Source: Octopus sinensis
Lineage: Eukaryota
NCBI RefSeq assembly: GCF_006345805.1
Contig: NC_042998.1
Location: forward strand, 90,272,001 to 90,336,000
Direction of reading: 5' to 3'
Length of the DNA stretch: 64,000 nucleotides
Position numbers and translations under genes: made by a program
Shown: piece after piece, positions 6,221 through 60,398 of the stretch
How positions within the stretch are numbered: the stretch's first letter is position 1
Layout: every line of letters begins with the position of its first letter
The notes under the pieces: generated by a model
The model's database searches: none
Seen by the model: only the letters and a program-made list of their open reading frames with translations
Told to the model about the DNA's origin: nothing

Positions 6221-8783
6221 ATGTTCTGACGGATTCGAATATGAATATGTTAATTGCTGTTATATTTCGTCATTGGAAAACAACTTCATGTATATGTGTA
6301 TTTGAACAAATGTTTTACGATATCGAAAATGAAAGACAAGTGGAATACTGAGGTGCCAACCATGAGACATTATTAGCTTACAGTAACATGGTTTTAATCG
6401 AGGAATAGAAATTCAAACCTTTTCCTGTTGCAGTTTTCAGTTTCGTTTCTGAGATTTTAATTGAATTCTAGAAGCTGATTAAACTGTAGGTTTTCAAAAG
6501 TTAGGGTGAAATTCGAATAGAAAACAAAATTTTTCGTTAAATTAAAACTTGATCTAACTTCGTTTTTATTTATTATTTTTATTTATATTTTATTGATATA
6601 TGTTAGCTGCAATTTTAGTTTGGATCTAAAACAAAGGTTTCATCGCTTTGTATGTAAAACATTTTGTAAAATTGGGATTGAATTGAACTGAAAATGGTAA
6701 AACTGAATTGAAAATCCAAATCGATAACAGAATTGAATTAAAACATTCGGAATATAACTAATATAGTTGCTTTACTTATGTTAAACTGAAAAACAAACAA
6801 CAAATAAAATACTTAAATTGAAATTTTCTCGGCTCGAAATATTGACTATATCCTTTTGATCATTTCAAGTGCGAGTGCTATGAAATTATGGTAATTACTC
6901 GGAGAGCCAAATCTGCATCACGTTTCGTTTACCGCTTAAGACATATATCTCGTACTTTCGATTTGTGCTGCAATAAAATAGACTGAAAGGGAAGGAGCTT
7001 GATCGGGCTCATGCACCCTTCATAAAATCTCCAGCGATGAATCCACAAATCACTGAGGTTTATATGACATTTTCACTAGTCAAACTGCTGTTAGAAGTTT
7101 AAACTAGAACTAAGAAAACTGTGTACTATTTTGTTAAACAACCTGTCTGTTTTGATAAGCATAAAGGAAGAATGTGTGGTTTAGTTTACTTTGGTAAAAC
7201 TGGAATTTTATGTATGAAGTTCATGTTTGGTGAATTTCCTTCGAAAGAATGATAGTATTCTCACGCAAGATCAGGATACCTTCAGTTTTACGTAAATCTT
7301 TTCCCTTTTTTTCTTTTTTGTAGTTCTTCTTGGTTGTTGTTTATGGTAGGAAGAAGAAGGCTGTATCTATACATCTGCTTCTTGTCTGTGTTACTTTAGT
7401 CGTGTTTGCATGCTTGTGTGTGTAAACTTAGAAAATGTAATTTAATCGCTACTGGGTGGTATCGAATAAGGGAAATATATCATAAGGTATTGAGTGCCAC
7501 AGAGTACGAACGGAGTTCCCAAAGAAGCGAGTCTACAACACGGTTACCATTCCTATTCCCGATGGAAAACACTCAACTTTACTTATATCACTAACACCTT
7601 TGAGAAAGTCCTCTTTCAACTATCCTACGCTTTCTCCTATAAAATGTAAGGGGTTTTTGAGCATCGTTAGAAGAAACCCTATATGTATGGCGATTTGATC
7701 TAAGCAGTCAAGTAATCAAACGTACATCTTCGGTCATCTTATATTAATTGATAATATATCAAGAATCATTTTTATTTGGTAGCCCAATTCTATAAATTTC
7801 GGTTGTATGCTTGCAAAGATTTACATTAAATATGACTATAGGAAAAATTACAAAAAAAATCTAAGCAAAATATCTCAGCTGACTTCAATTGTTTTCCGTC
7901 AGTTTGAGTGATGAATATTTAGTTGTTCGATAAAATGAACTACCGCTCATTGAATGGGTGTGTCAGTGGGGTATTGTACAGGCATGTGTGCCCTTGAAAT
8001 AATTCCTGAACTGAGTCAGTCCAACACAGTGTGGGACTAAGCCGAACCTTTGAACTACTAGCACAATCCACTCGACAGGCTTCCGCATAGTTTCCCTCAT
8101 CCCAATTTCACTACAAGTTCTGGGCCTTGATCGACTCCAGGCTATAGTAAAAGACGCTTGCTCAAGAAGTCACTTATTAAGATCTAACCCAGAACCTTGT
8201 GATTGAGATGCGAACTTTTTTGATACTCGCTCATACTGCATCTACTCAACCAACAAACTTAAGAAAAGCTTAAGAAGCAAGAGTCTAAGGAGAATTTACA
8301 GAAGACCTGTGAGCATCTGCTCGGATACATTCTTGGAATTCATTACTAACATTGTTTGAAGGCCATTACCTTGTCTCCGTAATTATTTCGTCATTATCAG
8401 AAAATATCAAAAAGAAGGAATCTTGGTCAAATCGGATATGTGATACGAGAATACAATGTAAGCATTAGCGAAGCGACAGTGCGAAAATAACCCATTTAAT
8501 GTCCACACTTCTAAGTCTATTTATTTGAATATGTTCCAGACTGTTAATATTATCTTTGTTGTCTCTTTATATATAGCAGAATTCGAGAAAACCGGTGAGA
8601 ACCAGTACTGTCGAAAGATGTCAGTACAGTCTTAGTTTACAATTATGCAGTCTTAGTTTACAGTAAGAATTTGGGTTGAGTGTTTCCTTTTTCAATGCAT
8701 ACAACTGTACGTAGTATAAATTTGATACCTAAAGATGAGCAAAATACATACTGCTTGAAATATAAGAATTAAAAATACATAGG

Positions 8784-14098: not shown

Positions 14099-15531
14099 GC
14101 TTTTTCTTGATCTCGCTTAAAAATCAATATTTTTCATCCGATTTCGTTTACGCTGGGAACATACATCATTTATGTTCCAGAAATAGTCATAGACTCTTCA
14201 AATTTTCCACATGATGAGTAATACTGCCCCTACAGGACGAAAACACCTTCTCATAGATACCAACGATCGTTGCTTCAAGGAACATTACTCTTGATGACGT
14301 AGTCATACTATTTTTACTTCGTCTTCTACTGCAGTTATTACAATGCCCATTCATTGCAAACTGCCAATATTTGCACATTAGCACTTCCTTGAAGTAGCCA
14401 TGCAATTTAAATCAGCTTTTAATTATTTTTTTCAAATGCCTTCAGAAATTAATCCATATTATACATATTCTCTGCTTTTACACATACAAAGTCGTGGCAG
14501 TTAGACAGCTTTCACAATGCCCGAACCTCACTTAAAAGTCAGTTGCCCAGTCATCATTCTACGCAATCTAAACGCACCCACACTATGCAATGGAACTCGC
14601 ATTGTGGTCAAACAAATGATGGACCAAGTCATTGAAGCCTAAATTATTACGGAACACGACAAAAACGATACCGTTTTTATTCCGAAAATTCCGCAAACCT
14701 TAACAGACTGCCCCTACCGTATGCGGAGACTTCAGTTTCCTCTCAAACTCAGCTTCGCCATGACAATTAACAATGCACAAGATCAATCGCTGAAATCTGT
14801 CATATTGGATCTTCGAATGCCATGTTTTTCACATAGACAGTTCTACGTCAGTTGTTCCAGAGTTGGCCATCCAGACAACCTATCCACTTATGATCCTGAA
14901 GGAAAAACCAAAAATGTCGTCTACGAAGCAGCCCTACAGTAGTTACTCCTCCACTGCAATCTTCACATCTACGCCAAACTGTAACCGTTTGCAATCAGAC
15001 TTCCTACAAGCATTTCATTGCTATTTTGCTTCATTTCCGTAATTGTTGTTTATAGTACATTACTTTCAATGATCCTTCTTACTTCACGCACACTGTTTGC
15101 TCATAAGCGTTCTCTGACATTTATTTTTGTACATGCCATTATTCTATGTGTGTGTTTGCTATAAATGTTTGCTTTTGTTTATCATACATGACTTCAATTG
15201 AAAAAAAAGCTTCAATACGATTGTATCAGGCATTCCGAGTAAACTAACTACATGCTACAAAACGCTTCAGATAGGATATAGGATCCCTAATGCCTACTGC
15301 AATTACGATCTCATTTCATGGACTTTCATTTATTACTAACTGCCAAATTTGTGCTCAAAAAGCGTTATTCATCACCTAGATTGCTTAATACCATATAACG
15401 AAATTGGTAATTATACATTTTACGTTTATCAACTTGAAATGACTTCTAAGTACTAATTCAACTTAAACCGTCCAAAGCAGTGCGCCATTATAATAGATTA
15501 CACCGTCCAAAGGACGGGTGCGTTTGCTAGT
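13991..15531 (+). mobile_element. Helitron, internally deleted, with Pif1-like helicase C-terminal remnant
   Basis: 5' TC-TATATA start; ILRNL...LCNGTR and RLQFPLKLSFAMTIN...FSH.QFYV.CSRV motifs; 3' hairpin CCGTCC-AAA-GGACGG then CTAG-T. Confidence 0.85.
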
Positions 15532-26304: not shown

Positions 26305-26374
26305 TTGCTACTACCACTTGGAAGCTGAGCATGAGAAGTCCGAATGTAAAGACTACTATATTCACAGCCATCAT
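26305..26374 (-). CDS. Ly6/uPAR three-finger gene A, coding exon 1 (signal peptide MMAVNIVVFTFGLLMLSFQVVVA)
   Basis: ATG followed by 23 codons with a hydrophobic core ending VVA, then a phase-1 GTAAGT donor (plus-strand acttac 26299-26304). Joins exon 2 in frame (A|AT=N). Confidence 0.85.
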
Positions 26375-31240: not shown

Positions 31241-31637
31241 TCTTTATATATAAAAGTGAGGTTGTGTGCTGTCTGTCTCCTACGATTTAGATTCCTAACT
31301 ACTCCCACATTTTGCGGTGCAGTTTAACCAAAACCGGGTATCTTATAGTCGTGATTCATATCGAGCCCTTCTGGGTATTAGCGCGCGTCTACGATGAGTC
31401 TACAAATTAAAAAAGATTTACCATCAATTTTTCCCATTTTTAATCCATTTTTGGCATATATATGGGAAGTAACTCTCTAAAACTTTATCATTAAATTTCA
31501 GAACGTAAAAAGCTACAGTAACACCTCCCCCCCTTTGTGGTTAGCCATATTGAGATGGCTATTATACTTTACATCTCTAAAAATGCTTATATAGTTATTT
31601 CCCTTACAAACCCGAGCAACGCCGGGCGATACTGCTA

Positions 31638-31639
<2 letters not shown>
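31241..31639 (+). mobile_element. Non-autonomous Helitron
   Basis: TC start, 3' hairpin then CTAG-T; homologous to 5708-6220. Confidence 0.8.
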
Positions 31640-31683
<44 letters not shown>

Positions 31684-31848
31684 GAGGGTACTATTATTCA
31701 TAGGTACCGCACGCTAGGAGGGACTTTTGCAGTCAAAACTACTAAAATAAACAAATTGTACCGAATGCAAAACTTCAAAGCAAGTCATTTAAAAACAGAA
31801 TTTTGTCGGGTTTGTAATGTTGTGTTTTTTCTTATATGTCTTGAGTTC

Positions 31849-31912
31849 GTTGCACTGAAGAGCATAGAATGCACATTCTCCATTGATTGCGAAATCACAG
31901 GTGATATGTAAC
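31849..31912 (+). ncRNA. Type I hammerhead ribozyme motif, copy 1
   Basis: Stem I GTTGCA/TGTAAC; core CTGAAGA; stem II GCA/TGC; GAAA; stem III ATCAC-AG-GTGAT; AUA cleavage site after 31906. Confidence 0.75.
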
Positions 31913-32147
31913 TAAATTCTGTTTTTAAATGACTTGCTTTGAAGTTTTGCATTCGGTACAATTTGTTTATTTTAGTAGTTTTGACTGCAAAAGTCCCTCC
32001 TAGCGTGCGGTACCTATGAATAATAGTACCCTCTATATAATATAAATAAATATTTTCAAAGTTGAAAAAAATTAACAGATTTTTTCTCTTACGCGGTTTT
32101 TCACGCTAACTACTGATAATTTCTTATAAAGATTTTATCCTTAATTT

Positions 32148-32218
<71 letters not shown>

Positions 32219-32392
32219 TATTATATAGAGGGTACTATTATTCATAGGTACCGCACGCTAGGAGGGACTTTTGCAGTCAAAACTACTAAAATAAACAAAT
32301 TGTACCGAATGCAAAACTTCAAAGCAAGTCATTTAAAAACAGAATTTTGTCGGGTTTGTAATGTTGTGTTTTTTCTTATATGTCTTGAGTTC

Positions 32393-32456
32393 GTTGCACT
32401 GAAGAGCATAGAATGCACATTCTCCATTGATTGCGAAATCACAGGTGATATGTAAC
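32393..32456 (+). ncRNA. Type I hammerhead ribozyme motif, copy 2 (544 bp downstream)
   Basis: Identical by eye to 31849-31912. Confidence 0.75.
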
Positions 32457-32700
32457 TAAATTCTGTTTTTAAATGACTTGCTTTGAAGTTTTGCATTCGG
32501 TACAATTTGTTTATTTTAGTAGTTTTGACTGCAAAAGTCCCTCCTAGCGTGCGGTACCTATGAATAATAGTACCCTCTATATAATATAAATAAATATTTT
32601 CAAAGTTGAAAAAAATTAACAGATTTTTTCTCTTACGCGGTTTTTCACGCTAACTACTGATAATTTCTTATAAAGATTTTATCCTTAATTTTAAATATAT

Positions 32701-32747
<47 letters not shown>

Positions 32748-33330: not shown

Positions 33331-34053
33331 ACCGAAAGCACATCACCGACCAAATGGAAAGGGACAATGTAATTCTTACTCTTTCTATCTCTTTATCAGC
33401 AGACCGTATGAGCAACACATTGTGCCATTGTCACTTATTTACAATTACTGCTATGTCTGTGTTACTAACCACTACCGGTAAATAAATCTATGAATATTAT
33501 TCTTTTCGCTTCGATGTTGTTATTACGCTGTCTCATCCTACTTTCGCCCATTTACATATTGAGACCCCGACGTGGAGCAAGAATCGCTATTTCTACATCG
33601 AGTAACGTTTTATCTGTACCCTACGACTGGCAACTCCAACGTGAGAACCATACATCTGTAGATTACATTTGGTGAGCCACACATTCGTACGTCACATCTG
33701 GTAACTTCGACGTAAGAAGTATATTTTACCATTACACACGCATATACGCACGCGAGCGAGCGCACACACACACACACGTGTGTGTATATAAATATATTAT
33801 GTGTGTATATACATATGTGTGTATATTGTATATATACATATATATATAAATATACATGACCGTATATATATTTGTATGTGTGTATGTATGTATATTTGTT
33901 TTGATATTTTTCATGAAGTTATATATAAAAACAATCAAAATTTAAACTGAAGGATCACTTAATATTTTTGGATCTAGTTTTTTTAGAAGAGTACATATTA
34001 GTTTTTACAAGGAAAAGGCTGACAGCAACTTCGAAGTTTCGGATATTTGCACA

Positions 34054-57777: not shown

Positions 57778-60120
57778 CATCATCATCATTGTTCGACCGT
57801 GGTCCAGACAATGGAATTGACCATGCTACGCCAGACTTCAAGGTCCATCATAGCATTACGGAGGTCCTGTTGCTGGATGCTTGTATCCCTAGAGATTACA
57901 TCAGGGTAGGAGAGTGTGCGCCCTCTGGTATTGGGAGTAGATGGCTTCCAGATGAGAAGAGTAGAAATTACTTCTTTTTCAGCTCTACAACAATGTCCAG
58001 CAAACTGGACTCTCCTACCTTTCACAAGAGATGACACAGGTGGTAGTTTCCCATATATTTGCATTTTGGTTGGATGACGCTTCCACGAGAGATTTTGAGC
58101 TCTCATAAGGAGGCGAGTGTAGGTTCCATCCAACCGCCTTTCAAGCTTCTTTGATAACGTCCAGGTTTCTGAGCCATATAGTAGAATTGGTTCGACTGTG
58201 GCTTTGAAGATTTCAAGTTTGAAGTCTCTACTTAGATTTGATGACCAGATCTTATGCATGTCATTACAGGCTGACCAGGCCATACCCTTTCTAGTTAGAA
58301 AATCTTTTCCAGATGATGATATGTATGACCCAAGATATTTATAATCAGAAACCATATTTAAGGGCGCATTGTTGAGAGTATGGATGATGCAATCACTGTT
58401 GGACAGACACTTGTTTATGTATTCAGTTTTGGCCTCATTGAGGTAAAGACCTACACAATTTGAGGCTTGTTCAAGATATTGTAAAAGAGACTGGGCATTG
58501 GAGAGAGAATCACTGATAAGAGCGATGTCGTCAGCAAAGTCAGTGTCTGTCAAGTACTCAGCTGGGTATCTGGAACTTCTTCTTGGTTTTATTTCAAAGC
58601 CCTTGCCAGAGATGGTATCAACTGACATACGTAGCACATAATCAACAACAATGGTGAAAAGAAATGGGGCGAGTGTGTCTCCCTGCAGTATTCCGGCTTT
58701 GATTGAGAAAGATGATGTTTCTCCGTCAGGGGTTAAGATGGTTGAAGACGTATCTGTGTAGAGGACCTTGATGGCAGAAATGATTTTGTCTGGTATCCCA
58801 TAGAGCTTAAGGATTTCAAACATATTGTACCTATCTACAGAATCGAACGCTTTAGAAAAGTCTACAAATACCATTGCAAGATCCCGATTAAATGCTTTTG
58901 ATTCTTCAATAAGTCTGCGTAGACATAGTATCTGGCTCAGCGTTGAGCGCCCATGTCTGAATCTATTTTGGTTCTTTCGGAGCAAAGGTTCAACAAAAAG
59001 GACAAGACGATTTAGGATCAGTTTGTTGTACAGTTTTGCAGCAATTGACATTAGAGATATACCCCTGTAGTTGGTGACGAGGGATAAATCGCCTTTTTTG
59101 GGTATTGGGATGATTTGAGATTGGTGCCAAATCTTTGGAGCGACAAAGGTGGAAAGTGTGTGGTTGCAGAGGTTGAGCAAAAGTGTGTGAAATCTATCAT
59201 CCTTCCAAATTATAGCTGGGATGTTGTCGGGACCAAATGCTTTCGAGGCTTTTAGTTGCTTGGTGGCTGCTGTTAGTTCAAATATGGTAAAAGGGGAGGT
59301 GTTGATGTCCAGCGTGTCTGATATAGGCACACTTGGAAGAGTGGGGTTATCAGGGATTTTGGCATTCTTCCCAAGGAGGTTTTTAAAATGGGTTGACCAA
59401 TTTTCTAAACGTTTCTTAGCTGATCCCCCTTTAATTCTAATTGATGACCCAGAATTTTTGCCTGATAGGTCTTTGATGGATTTCCAGGCGAGATGGTGTT
59501 TTTTACTAATGTGCTCTTTGGATAGTTTACTAATTTTGCCATTGATAAAGTCGACCTCGGCGTTCAAGTAAGCCTCATCAAGATTCTTCTTGGCAGCTAT
59601 GAGTTGGGTCTTCAGTGACTGGGATGGAGAACGGTGGTAAGCTAGTGATATAGACTTTAGATGGTTTCTGGCTTCGATGACATTTGGGGAATTAGAAGGT
59701 TTGCTCTGGCCCCTACTCTTCTAGGTGAGATTGACTCTATACTCAAGAGAGTATCACTGGCTTTTGATGAAAGTAGAAATCCGATACCTCCAACTGTTGA
59801 ATTAACTTGGTGATAGGGCACAAATTGACTACCTCATCTTTCGAAAGAAATGGCGCAATAGTGTTAAAAACTCGAGATCCTACTCTTCCTTTAGTTCTGT
59901 CGGCTCTGACCACAGAATTGTATCAGCTACCCTTAAGCTTAGTCTTCGCTCATCCAAAAAAGCTAAGCCTCACCCGATGAAAACGATCGACTGGGAGGAA
60001 GTCTTATCTAACCCCGATATGTCCAAACAATTTACTATTGAGGTCTATAACACATTTAAATCTTTGTCTACTTCTGAAATAGATGCTGAGAACATTGAAG
60101 AAGTATACAGCAGCCTCATC
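57778..60120 (-). mobile_element. RTE-clade LINE with (ATG)n tail and rearranged, partly inverted 5' end
   Basis: ORF 57786..59567 with NYRGISL, QGDTLAPFLF, FADD and LYGSETW. Endonuclease C-terminus (QIDY...GSDHR) lies on the plus strand at about 59809-60120. Putative TSD attaaaaaaa at both ends. Confidence 0.9.
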
Positions 60121-60398
60121 ATTAAAAAAAATGGTGTGCATTCAAAGTGTCGATGTCGGGCGTTACTGCCCGTCAGTCAACCAGTTTGGTCTATACATTT
60201 TTTCTCTTAACTTTTGTTCTACTGCACCAACTTTTAAGTGTTTTATGTCTAAATGTAGCTTATCACTAGTCAAACATAATTCAAAGAAACTAAATTTGAT
60301 TTTGATTAAAACTGAATTTGTGAGATTGTTTGGAAGACGCCGACTGCAATAAAAAAGCTTCGTTAAGAATATTATTCAACTACTACCGTAGTTGAATG

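What the first reader, a model, noticed from the sequence alone, without database searches (positions are those of the whole stretch)
31677..32695. Tandem 544-bp foldback units, each with an intact hammerhead in the loop: retrozyme-like dimer
Seen: each unit has about 127-bp perfect inverted arms enclosing a 110-nt loop with a complete type I hammerhead (CUGAAGA, GAAA, AUA site, very short stem III). Two apparently identical units are joined by (TA)n. Established: minimal type I hammerheads with weak stem III occur in Penelope-like elements and metazoan non-LTR retrozymes, and cleave best as tandem dimers that release monomers able to circularise. Inference: cleavage after 31906 and 32450 would free a 544-nt RNA whose right and left arms pair into a long rod-like duplex. 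This would be a non-coding, Penelope-mobilised element that is also a strong ADAR/Dicer substrate. It lies antisense to the Ly6 genes.
Basis: partly seen in the sequence, partly recalled or inferred. Interest (0 to 1): 0.72.

Follow-up and report, generated by a model that had tools for sequence, protein, structure and literature searches.

The report
Duplicated two-armed hammerhead retrozyme insertion
This is one slightly decayed copy of a common small non-coding repeat carrying a predicted self-cutting RNA motif; its hairpin shape is the mirror-image footprint such repeats leave when likely pasted in by Penelope-type jumping-gene enzymes, and the doubling is likely a later one-off local copy (or an assembly error), not a new kind of hairpin RNA element.

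Summary
Observation confirmed: two units identical over 500 bp, 131-bp perfect arms, a 110-nt loop and a type I hammerhead whose stems covary in sister families.

The 544-bp foldback is not the element. The family monomer is 495 bp, non-coding and dispersed (2,478 first-look candidates), in partial head-to-tail arrays. Here it sits as a 5'-truncated copy plus an inverted arm. In 30 of 39 other two-armed insertions one arm ends at monomer position 400 and the other at 495: the published Penelope 'inverted pLTR plus tail' footprint.

The inversion junction occurs only twice in the genome, both here. The two units share four private mutations and differ at none, so the doubling came long after insertion (likely TA-tract slippage or unequal exchange) or is an assembly artefact. 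Reads could not decide.

This copy's ribozyme is predicted to fold worse than all 32 sister motifs tested. No autonomous partner was found, and there is no evidence of expression from this locus. The scan noted the same architecture in other families of this genome; this family had no look-alike note.

Verdict: new member of a known kind, low interest.

The parts
31664..31806 (-). Unit 1 inverted arm: family monomer positions 400 back to 258, ending at the internal start site (400) against the (TA)n tract
31804..32150 (+). Unit 1 sense arm: 5'-truncated family monomer, positions 150-495; 3-nt overlap (TGT) at the inversion junction
31849..31912 (+). Type I hammerhead motif 1, predicted cut after 31906; two private substitutions in the stem II extension
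32054..32150 (+). Penelope-type 'tail' of unit 1 (monomer 401-495), present on one arm only
32151..32212 (.). (TA)n tract between the units; likely the duplication breakpoint
32213..32350 (-). Unit 2 inverted arm, same junction as unit 1
32348..32694 (+). Unit 2 sense arm with tail, identical to unit 1
32393..32456 (+). Type I hammerhead motif 2, predicted cut after 32450
31639..31663 (.). Left (TA)n target tract
32695..32745 (.). Right (TA)n target tract

Best explanation
The unit is one insertion of a dispersed, non-coding 495-bp hammerhead repeat, likely pasted into a TA microsatellite by a Penelope-like reverse transcriptase-endonuclease, and likely doubled in place much later by slippage or unequal exchange between its flanking TA tracts. 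Shown: the family, its 495-bp monomer, its partial tandems, the two fixed 3' ends (400 and 495), the uniqueness of this junction, and the shared private mutations. Inferred: the enzyme nicks both strands of (TA)n; each nicked end primes reverse transcription at a different internal site of the RNA (400 and 495); the two cDNAs stop early and join head to head by a 3-nt microhomology, which leaves an inverted arm, a sense arm and a tail on one side. Whether the ribozyme ends up in the hairpin loop depends only on where each arm was truncated. The copy then aged (about 1.2% private changes, two of them in the ribozyme's stem II extension) before it was doubled. It is most likely an inert by-product, not a selected rod-RNA producer.
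For: Family and monomer; 83 exact copies of a 55-nt ribozyme core. Two-armed insertions pair ends 400+495 in 19 of 26 (exact-core set) and 11 of 13 (best-hit set); 495+495 in 1 of 39, 400+400 in 0 of 39, other ends in 8 of 39; P=2e-5 for 19 of 20 classifiable at even odds. The sister family shows the same two-end rule and multimers of up to about 10 units. This matches the published inverted pLTR with a one-sided tail (PMC8557442, PMC3846280) and two internal RT start sites (PMC11167929). Junction 24-mer: 2 matches genome-wide, both here; ribozyme variant 24-mer likewise. Four variants shared by both units occur in 0 of 35-39 other segments; co-inserted direct repeats at other loci differ at 85 of 2,609 positions, so 0 of 500 has P about 1e-7 to 1e-5. 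Near-identical TA-bounded doublings occur at other loci (L012, L123, L127). Stems I and II covary across sister families. RT + GIY-YIG Penelope-like ORFs of 775-781 aa exist in the genome.
Against: No autonomous element sharing sequence with this family was found among the GIY-YIG loci examined, so the mobilising enzyme is inferred from the footprint only. The tail is about 95 nt, longer than the 30-40 bp usually cited. In vitro the Anolis enzyme showed no strand difference in start-site use (PMC11167929), so the strict 400/495 pairing is not explained by that work. Perfect identity of the two units, plus indel-type differences in the other doublings, fits an assembly artefact as well.
Confidence: 0.58

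Rival explanations
1. Same insertion, but the genome holds a single unit: the second unit is an assembly duplicate made across the TA tracts. With one ribozyme per locus no monomer could be excised.
For: 0 differences in 500 bp. TA tracts on both sides and a 345-bp irregular TA run nearby. Other near-identical doublings in this assembly, one at 100% over 578 bp (L009), and L123 differing mostly by 1-2 nt indels.
Against: Some other doublings carry internal substitutions (L012, L127), though merged haplotypes would too. The three TA tracts differ in length and interruptions. No direct read evidence either way.
Confidence: 0.3
2. One reading: the dimer is transcribed on the + strand, both ribozymes cut (perhaps as a double hammerhead through the self-complementary stem III), and a 544-nt RNA with a 130-165 bp perfect duplex is released and circularised, a new-born rod-like retrozyme and dsRNA source.
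For: Both catalytic cores are intact. Stem III can pair between copies (-11.2 kcal/mol). The 544-nt piece folds into a long rod, -280 to -286 kcal/mol. The swapped pairing costs no energy.
Against: No progeny: the junction exists nowhere else. The hammerhead fold lies 8.2 kcal/mol above the ensemble in isolation (family median 4.1, 0 of 32 as bad) and 12.0 in the loop (4.5-5.1 in 4 of 5 normal contexts, 9.2 in the fifth). Co-transcriptional folding would first pair each unit's own arms, tethering the cut piece until a 131-bp branch migration (inference). Only 1 of 9 predicted Xenopus retrozyme dimers cleaved in vitro (bioRxiv 10.64898/2026.07.22.740005).
Confidence: 0.05
3. The family is only the terminal repeat (pLTR) of a coding Penelope-like element not yet found, and all copies seen are truncated ends, with no independent non-autonomous life.
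For: Two-armed ends with a tail are exactly what truncated coding elements leave (PMC8557442). The Hydra clade, reported from an octopus in that paper's supplement, was not searched in this genome.
Against: Wherever a copy extends 5' of monomer position 1 it runs into another monomer's position 495, not into an ORF. tblastn with three Penelope-like proteins over 112 family loci gave hits in 4 loci (L061, L117, L132, L140), short fragments, none forming an intact ORF joined to the repeat. The sister family forms pure multimers.
Confidence: 0.07

Closest known systems
Metazoan non-LTR retrozymes (Cervera and de la Pena 2020, PMC7229834, passages read; Li, Clavereau and Pollet 2026, bioRxiv 10.64898/2026.07.22.740005, parts 1-3 of 5 read)
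   Same: Non-coding, AT-rich, head-to-tail repeat with one type I hammerhead per monomer; dispersed monomers, dimers and multimers; co-occurs with Penelope-like elements.
   Different: Monomer 495 bp (above the 150-450 bp of the first paper, inside the 51-972 bp of the second). Cleavage and circles not shown here. No pLTR relative found. The window's 544-bp repeat unit is an insertion product, not the monomer.
EN+ Penelope-like element insertions with inverted pLTR and tail (Craig et al. 2021, PMC8557442, passages and supplement look-ups; Arkhipova et al. 2013, PMC3846280, passages; Frangieh et al. 2024, PMC11167929, parts 1-2 of 4 read)
   Same: 5' truncation, partial tandems, head-to-head inverted 5' arm, tail on one end only, two fixed 3' ends, (TA)n targets, hammerhead upstream of the ends.
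   Different: No RT or GIY-YIG ORF; tail about 95 nt rather than 30-40; whole insertion doubled.
[quoted passage not shown]
   Same: Core CUGANGA / GAAA / UH, 6-bp stem I, self-complementary stem III able to pair between copies; that paper also notes pairs of motifs 100-700 bp apart on opposite strands.
   Different: Stem III is 4 bp rather than 0-2; stem II is 3 bp plus a distal hairpin; no Rfam model matches.

Membership tests
Non-LTR retrozyme | Type I hammerhead with full core | tested here: met
   compensatory stems I and II in sister families, core invariant in 8 of 8 aligned motifs except the variable N. Rfam models did not match.
Non-LTR retrozyme | Short head-to-tail repeats, one ribozyme per unit | tested here: met
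   495-bp partial tandems, two ribozymes 494 nt apart in L030; sister family multimers. The window dimer meets the formal rule but with a 544-bp unit unique to this locus.
Non-LTR retrozyme | Non-coding, low GC | tested here: met
   Longest stop-to-stop frame over the units is 106 aa; GC 0.33 over 31778-31941. PBS and PPT were not searched.
Non-LTR retrozyme | Monomer of 150-450 bp | tested here: inconclusive
   495 bp: above the 2020 range, within the 2026 range of 51-972 bp.
Non-LTR retrozyme | Self-cleavage and linear/circular monomer RNA in vivo | not testable with these tools
   No listed holder is on record as RNA; folding predictions only.
EN+ Penelope-like element | Partial tandems, inverted 5' arm, one-sided tail, TA targets | tested here: met
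   30 of 39 two-armed insertions pair ends 400 and 495; TA at the ends of most loci.
EN+ Penelope-like element | ORF with RT and GIY-YIG endonuclease | tested here: not met
   None in or joined to the element; so not an autonomous PLE.
Non-autonomous derivative of a named PLE family | Sequence similarity to an autonomous element's pLTR | tested here: inconclusive
   No match in 30 + 18 + 7 + 20 stretches taken at or near GIY-YIG matches, partly overlapping; only a small part of 5,029 GIY-YIG candidates was seen and the Hydra clade was not searched.
Independent foldback (rod-RNA) element | Same arm-loop-arm unit at several loci | tested here: not met
   Junction found 2 times in 2.72 Gb, both in this window; arm lengths and junctions differ at every other two-armed locus.

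The most novel reading that the evidence does not exclude
A retrozyme caught being reborn: a Penelope-style two-armed insertion, doubled by its own TA flanks, becomes a two-ribozyme cassette that excises a 544-nt circle with a perfect duplex of more than 130 bp. Such TA-mediated doubling of foldback insertions (also seen at L012 and L127) would be a general route by which single-ribozyme relics turn into new tandem retrozyme units and into viroid-like double-stranded circles in an animal with heavy RNA editing.
Probability: 0.06. Interest if true: 0.65.

Novelty: new member of a known kind. Interest (0 to 1): 0.27.

Why it matters
As it stands it is one more octopus-type retrozyme family with a clean Penelope footprint. 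Its modest value is as data: in two-armed insertions the two ends almost never use the same start site (30 of 31 classifiable), which constrains how Penelope enzymes build inverted ends and supports the proposal that animal retrozymes ride on Penelope machinery. The doubling matters only if it is real and expressed; then it would show how a one-ribozyme relic can become a two-ribozyme cassette making long double-stranded RNA. It is also a caution: foldback-plus-hammerhead units in this genome are insertion footprints, not designed hairpin RNAs.

Tried and rejected
Rfam: no hammerhead match at gathering score or E<=10; a miss of the models, not evidence against the motif.

Raw reads X22-X24 (about 3% of each run read) gave no cover of the unique flank and almost none of the family, so they say nothing on the dimer. 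Logan contigs of X1-X3 hold the unique right flank with no differences but end in the TA tract, and no junction-spanning piece was among those listed (807 not shown). No RNA holder listed. In X12 (RNA is a guess) the one contig over the ribozyme carries the family letters at 32418 and 32424, not this locus's: too weak to use.

No second copy (haplotig or empty site) of the right flank in G000.

Gene conversion between the arms: rejected. The arms match the family majority with no shared derived change, and perfect arms have P about 0.05 by chance.

Upstream Helitron-like repeat as part of the element: rejected; none of 7 other copies has the family nearby.

Search for the autonomous partner failed. 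Two short family motifs were absent from the held supplement of PMC8557442, which was cut when stored. Supplements of the bioRxiv preprint are closed and may list related families.

Enrichment of doubling among foldbacks: not shown; within this family 0 of 39 other two-armed and 1 of 46 one-armed insertions are doubled.

Paper searches found no description of cephalopod retrozymes or of doubled foldback insertions; the library is incomplete.

Full report
1. Observation. The sequence holds two units 544 bp apart with 0 differences over 31668-32167. Each has perfect inverted arms of 131 bp (31673-31803 with 31914-32044), 143 bp at 98%, around a 110-nt loop, followed by a 97-nt unpaired tail and a (TA)n tract. 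The loop holds a type I hammerhead: stem I GTTGCA/TGTAAC, core CTGAAGA, stem II, GAAA, stem III ATCA-CAGG-TGAT and an AUA site cut after 31906 and 32450. These were the only two hits of my descriptor in the window. Rfam did not find them. The motif is nevertheless real: a sister family 74% alike keeps the core and stem III and rewrites stem I (GACTTG/CAAGTC, GGCCTG/CAGGTC) and stem II (ATAC/GTAT, GTAC/GTAC) with pairing kept.

2. What the unit is. A search of the own genome G000 (2.72 Gb) gave 2,478 first-look candidates, 40 scored, 158 matches; I took the best 30 as loci. Nearly all match only the sense part of the unit. Mapping them showed a 495-bp monomer in partial head-to-tail arrays. In monomer coordinates the window unit reads 400<258 joined to 150>495: an inverted arm that ends at 400 and a 5'-truncated sense copy that ends at 495, with a 3-nt overlap at the junction. 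To avoid the bias of best hits I searched an exact 55-nt ribozyme core (83 matches) and fetched 57 stretches around matches not already held. They hold 58 ribozyme-bearing insertions: 26 two-armed (19 with ends 400+495, 1 with 495+495, 0 with 400+400, 6 with another end) and 32 one-armed (24 ending at 400, 5 at 495, 3 elsewhere). The best-hit set (27 loci; the two window loci and one duplicate left out) gave 13 two-armed, 11 of them 400+495. For the unbiased set, 19 of 20 classifiable mixed pairs has P=2e-5 at even odds. Arm lengths and junctions differ at every locus. The sister family (460-bp monomer) follows the same two-end rule and forms multimers of up to about ten units. No ORF above 106 aa overlaps the units, and copies that extend upstream run into another monomer, not into coding sequence.

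3. Published match. Partial tandems, an inverted 5'-truncated copy, a tail on one end only and (TA)n targets are the described footprint of endonuclease-bearing Penelope-like elements (PMC8557442, passages; PMC3846280, passages). The tail corresponds to the stretch between two internal reverse-transcription start sites in vitro (PMC11167929, parts 1-2). Tandem non-coding type I hammerhead repeats are non-LTR retrozymes (PMC7229834, passages), proposed to be non-autonomous Penelope derivatives (bioRxiv 10.64898/2026.07.22.740005, parts 1-3). G000 encodes RT + GIY-YIG proteins of 775-781 aa, but none of the stretches examined shares sequence with this family, so the partner is unnamed. The label 'octopus' comes from earlier scan notes and my recall of the repeat content, not from a call of mine.

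4. The dimer. A 24-mer across the inversion junction matches twice in the genome, both in this window; so does a 24-mer with this copy's ribozyme variant. The foldback unit therefore has no progeny. Against the family majority each unit has 6 differences in 346 bp; 4 are found in 0 of 35-39 other segments and all are shared by both units. Direct repeats laid down in one insertion at other loci differ at 85 of 2,609 positions, so 0 of 500 is very unlikely for co-insertion (P about 1e-7 to 1e-5). The order is insertion, ageing, then doubling. A screen of the 172 loci then held (7 of them from this window) found other near-identical doublings: L012 (a foldback, 99.3%), L127 (a hammerhead foldback of another family, 98%), L123 (a one-armed copy of this family with 147 bp of flank, 98%) and L009 (100%, no TA boundary). 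These fit either real slippage or unequal exchange between TA tracts (established for short direct repeats; recalled) or a recurring assembly fault. Reads did not decide: X22-X24 missed the locus and contigs of X1-X3 stop in the TA tract. I put real against artefact at about 2 to 1.

5. The 544-nt piece between the cut sites folds as a long rod, and stem III could pair between the two motifs. Against it: two of the private changes fall in the stem II extension, and the hammerhead fold of this copy lies 8.2 kcal/mol above the ensemble, against a median of 4.1 for 32 family motifs, none as bad; inside the hairpin loop the gap is 12.0, against 4.5-5.1 in 4 of 5 normal contexts. These are relative figures only: the program ignores tertiary contacts and magnesium, and even typical copies do not have the hammerhead as their lowest fold. 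The two local hairpins (-546.2) and the swapped pairing (-547.4 kcal/mol) are equal in energy; co-transcriptional folding would likely trap the local hairpins and tether the cut piece. There is no evidence of expression from this locus.

6. Context. A 398-bp repeat with Helitron-type ends (TC ... hairpin ... CTAG, between A and T) abuts the left TA tract (31241-31638); it is an independent high-copy family. Cysteine-rich Ly6-like exons lie on the - strand at 38939-38781 and 37874-37750 and at about 17167-17003 and 9107-9030, with a candidate signal exon at 26374; the family name is by pattern and recall, Pfam gave no such hit. The element lies between the two genes' identified exons with its ribozyme on the opposite strand. 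A read-through - strand transcript would still form the 131-bp hairpins, without the ribozyme.

7. Verdict. Observation confirmed, interpretation partly supported. The family is a new member of a known kind (non-LTR retrozyme with a Penelope footprint); the foldback dimer is a locus-specific by-product. Earlier notes of this scan describe the same architecture in other families of this genome; none matched this family by sequence. Interest 0.27.

Noticed in passing
window 31241-31638 (+): 398-bp non-coding repeat with Helitron-type ends (5' TC, 3' hairpin then CTAG, inserted between A and T); 1,958 candidates, 40 of 40 scored copies 96-100% alike and full length.
   Followed up: partly
window 38939-37750, 26374, 17167-17003, 9107-9030 (-): Two paralogous Ly6/three-finger-like genes by cysteine pattern; the exon at 37874-37750 ends in a splice donor but no downstream GPI-signal exon was found.
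   Followed up: partly
window 33400-33480 (+): Exon-like stretch with acceptor, ATG, a hydrophobic 23-residue peptide and a phase-1 donor, on the strand opposite the Ly6-like genes; may be chance or a signal exon of another gene.
   Followed up: partly
window 45822-45933 (+): Short GIY-YIG-like remnant directly after a long (TTA)n tract.
   Followed up: no
L093:484-2153 and 6417-8091: Penelope-like element with two overlapping ORFs (479 and 781 aa) flanked by 1.66-kb repeats 99.3-99.8% alike that include its own 3' end, a TA tract, a nested hammerhead repeat of another family and a further repeat: possible 3' transduction or TA-mediated doubling.
   Followed up: partly
L006:1281-2700: The family studied here and its 460-bp sister family are inserted side by side in one TA tract.
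   Followed up: partly
L096, L097, L098: Sister-family multimers of 7-10 units; L098 alternates two unit lengths (period 944), and L096 repeats a six-unit block, as if copied from higher-order templates.
   Followed up: no
L009:2021-3178, L012:1884-2756, L123:1738-3000, L127:2680-3896: Near-identical 425-604 bp tandem doublings, three of four bounded by TA tracts and two being foldback insertions; either a common real process or a recurring assembly fault.
   Followed up: partly
L034, L088, L097:724, L101:6459, L127: At least three further unrelated type I hammerhead families met by chance in fetched stretches, several with the same two-armed TA footprint.
   Followed up: no
window 41786-45014, 49232-51256, 57786-60210 (-), 14643-14942 (+): Long LINE-type RT frames (616, 674, 644 aa) and a short helicase-like fragment; labels from inspection of the translations.
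   Followed up: no
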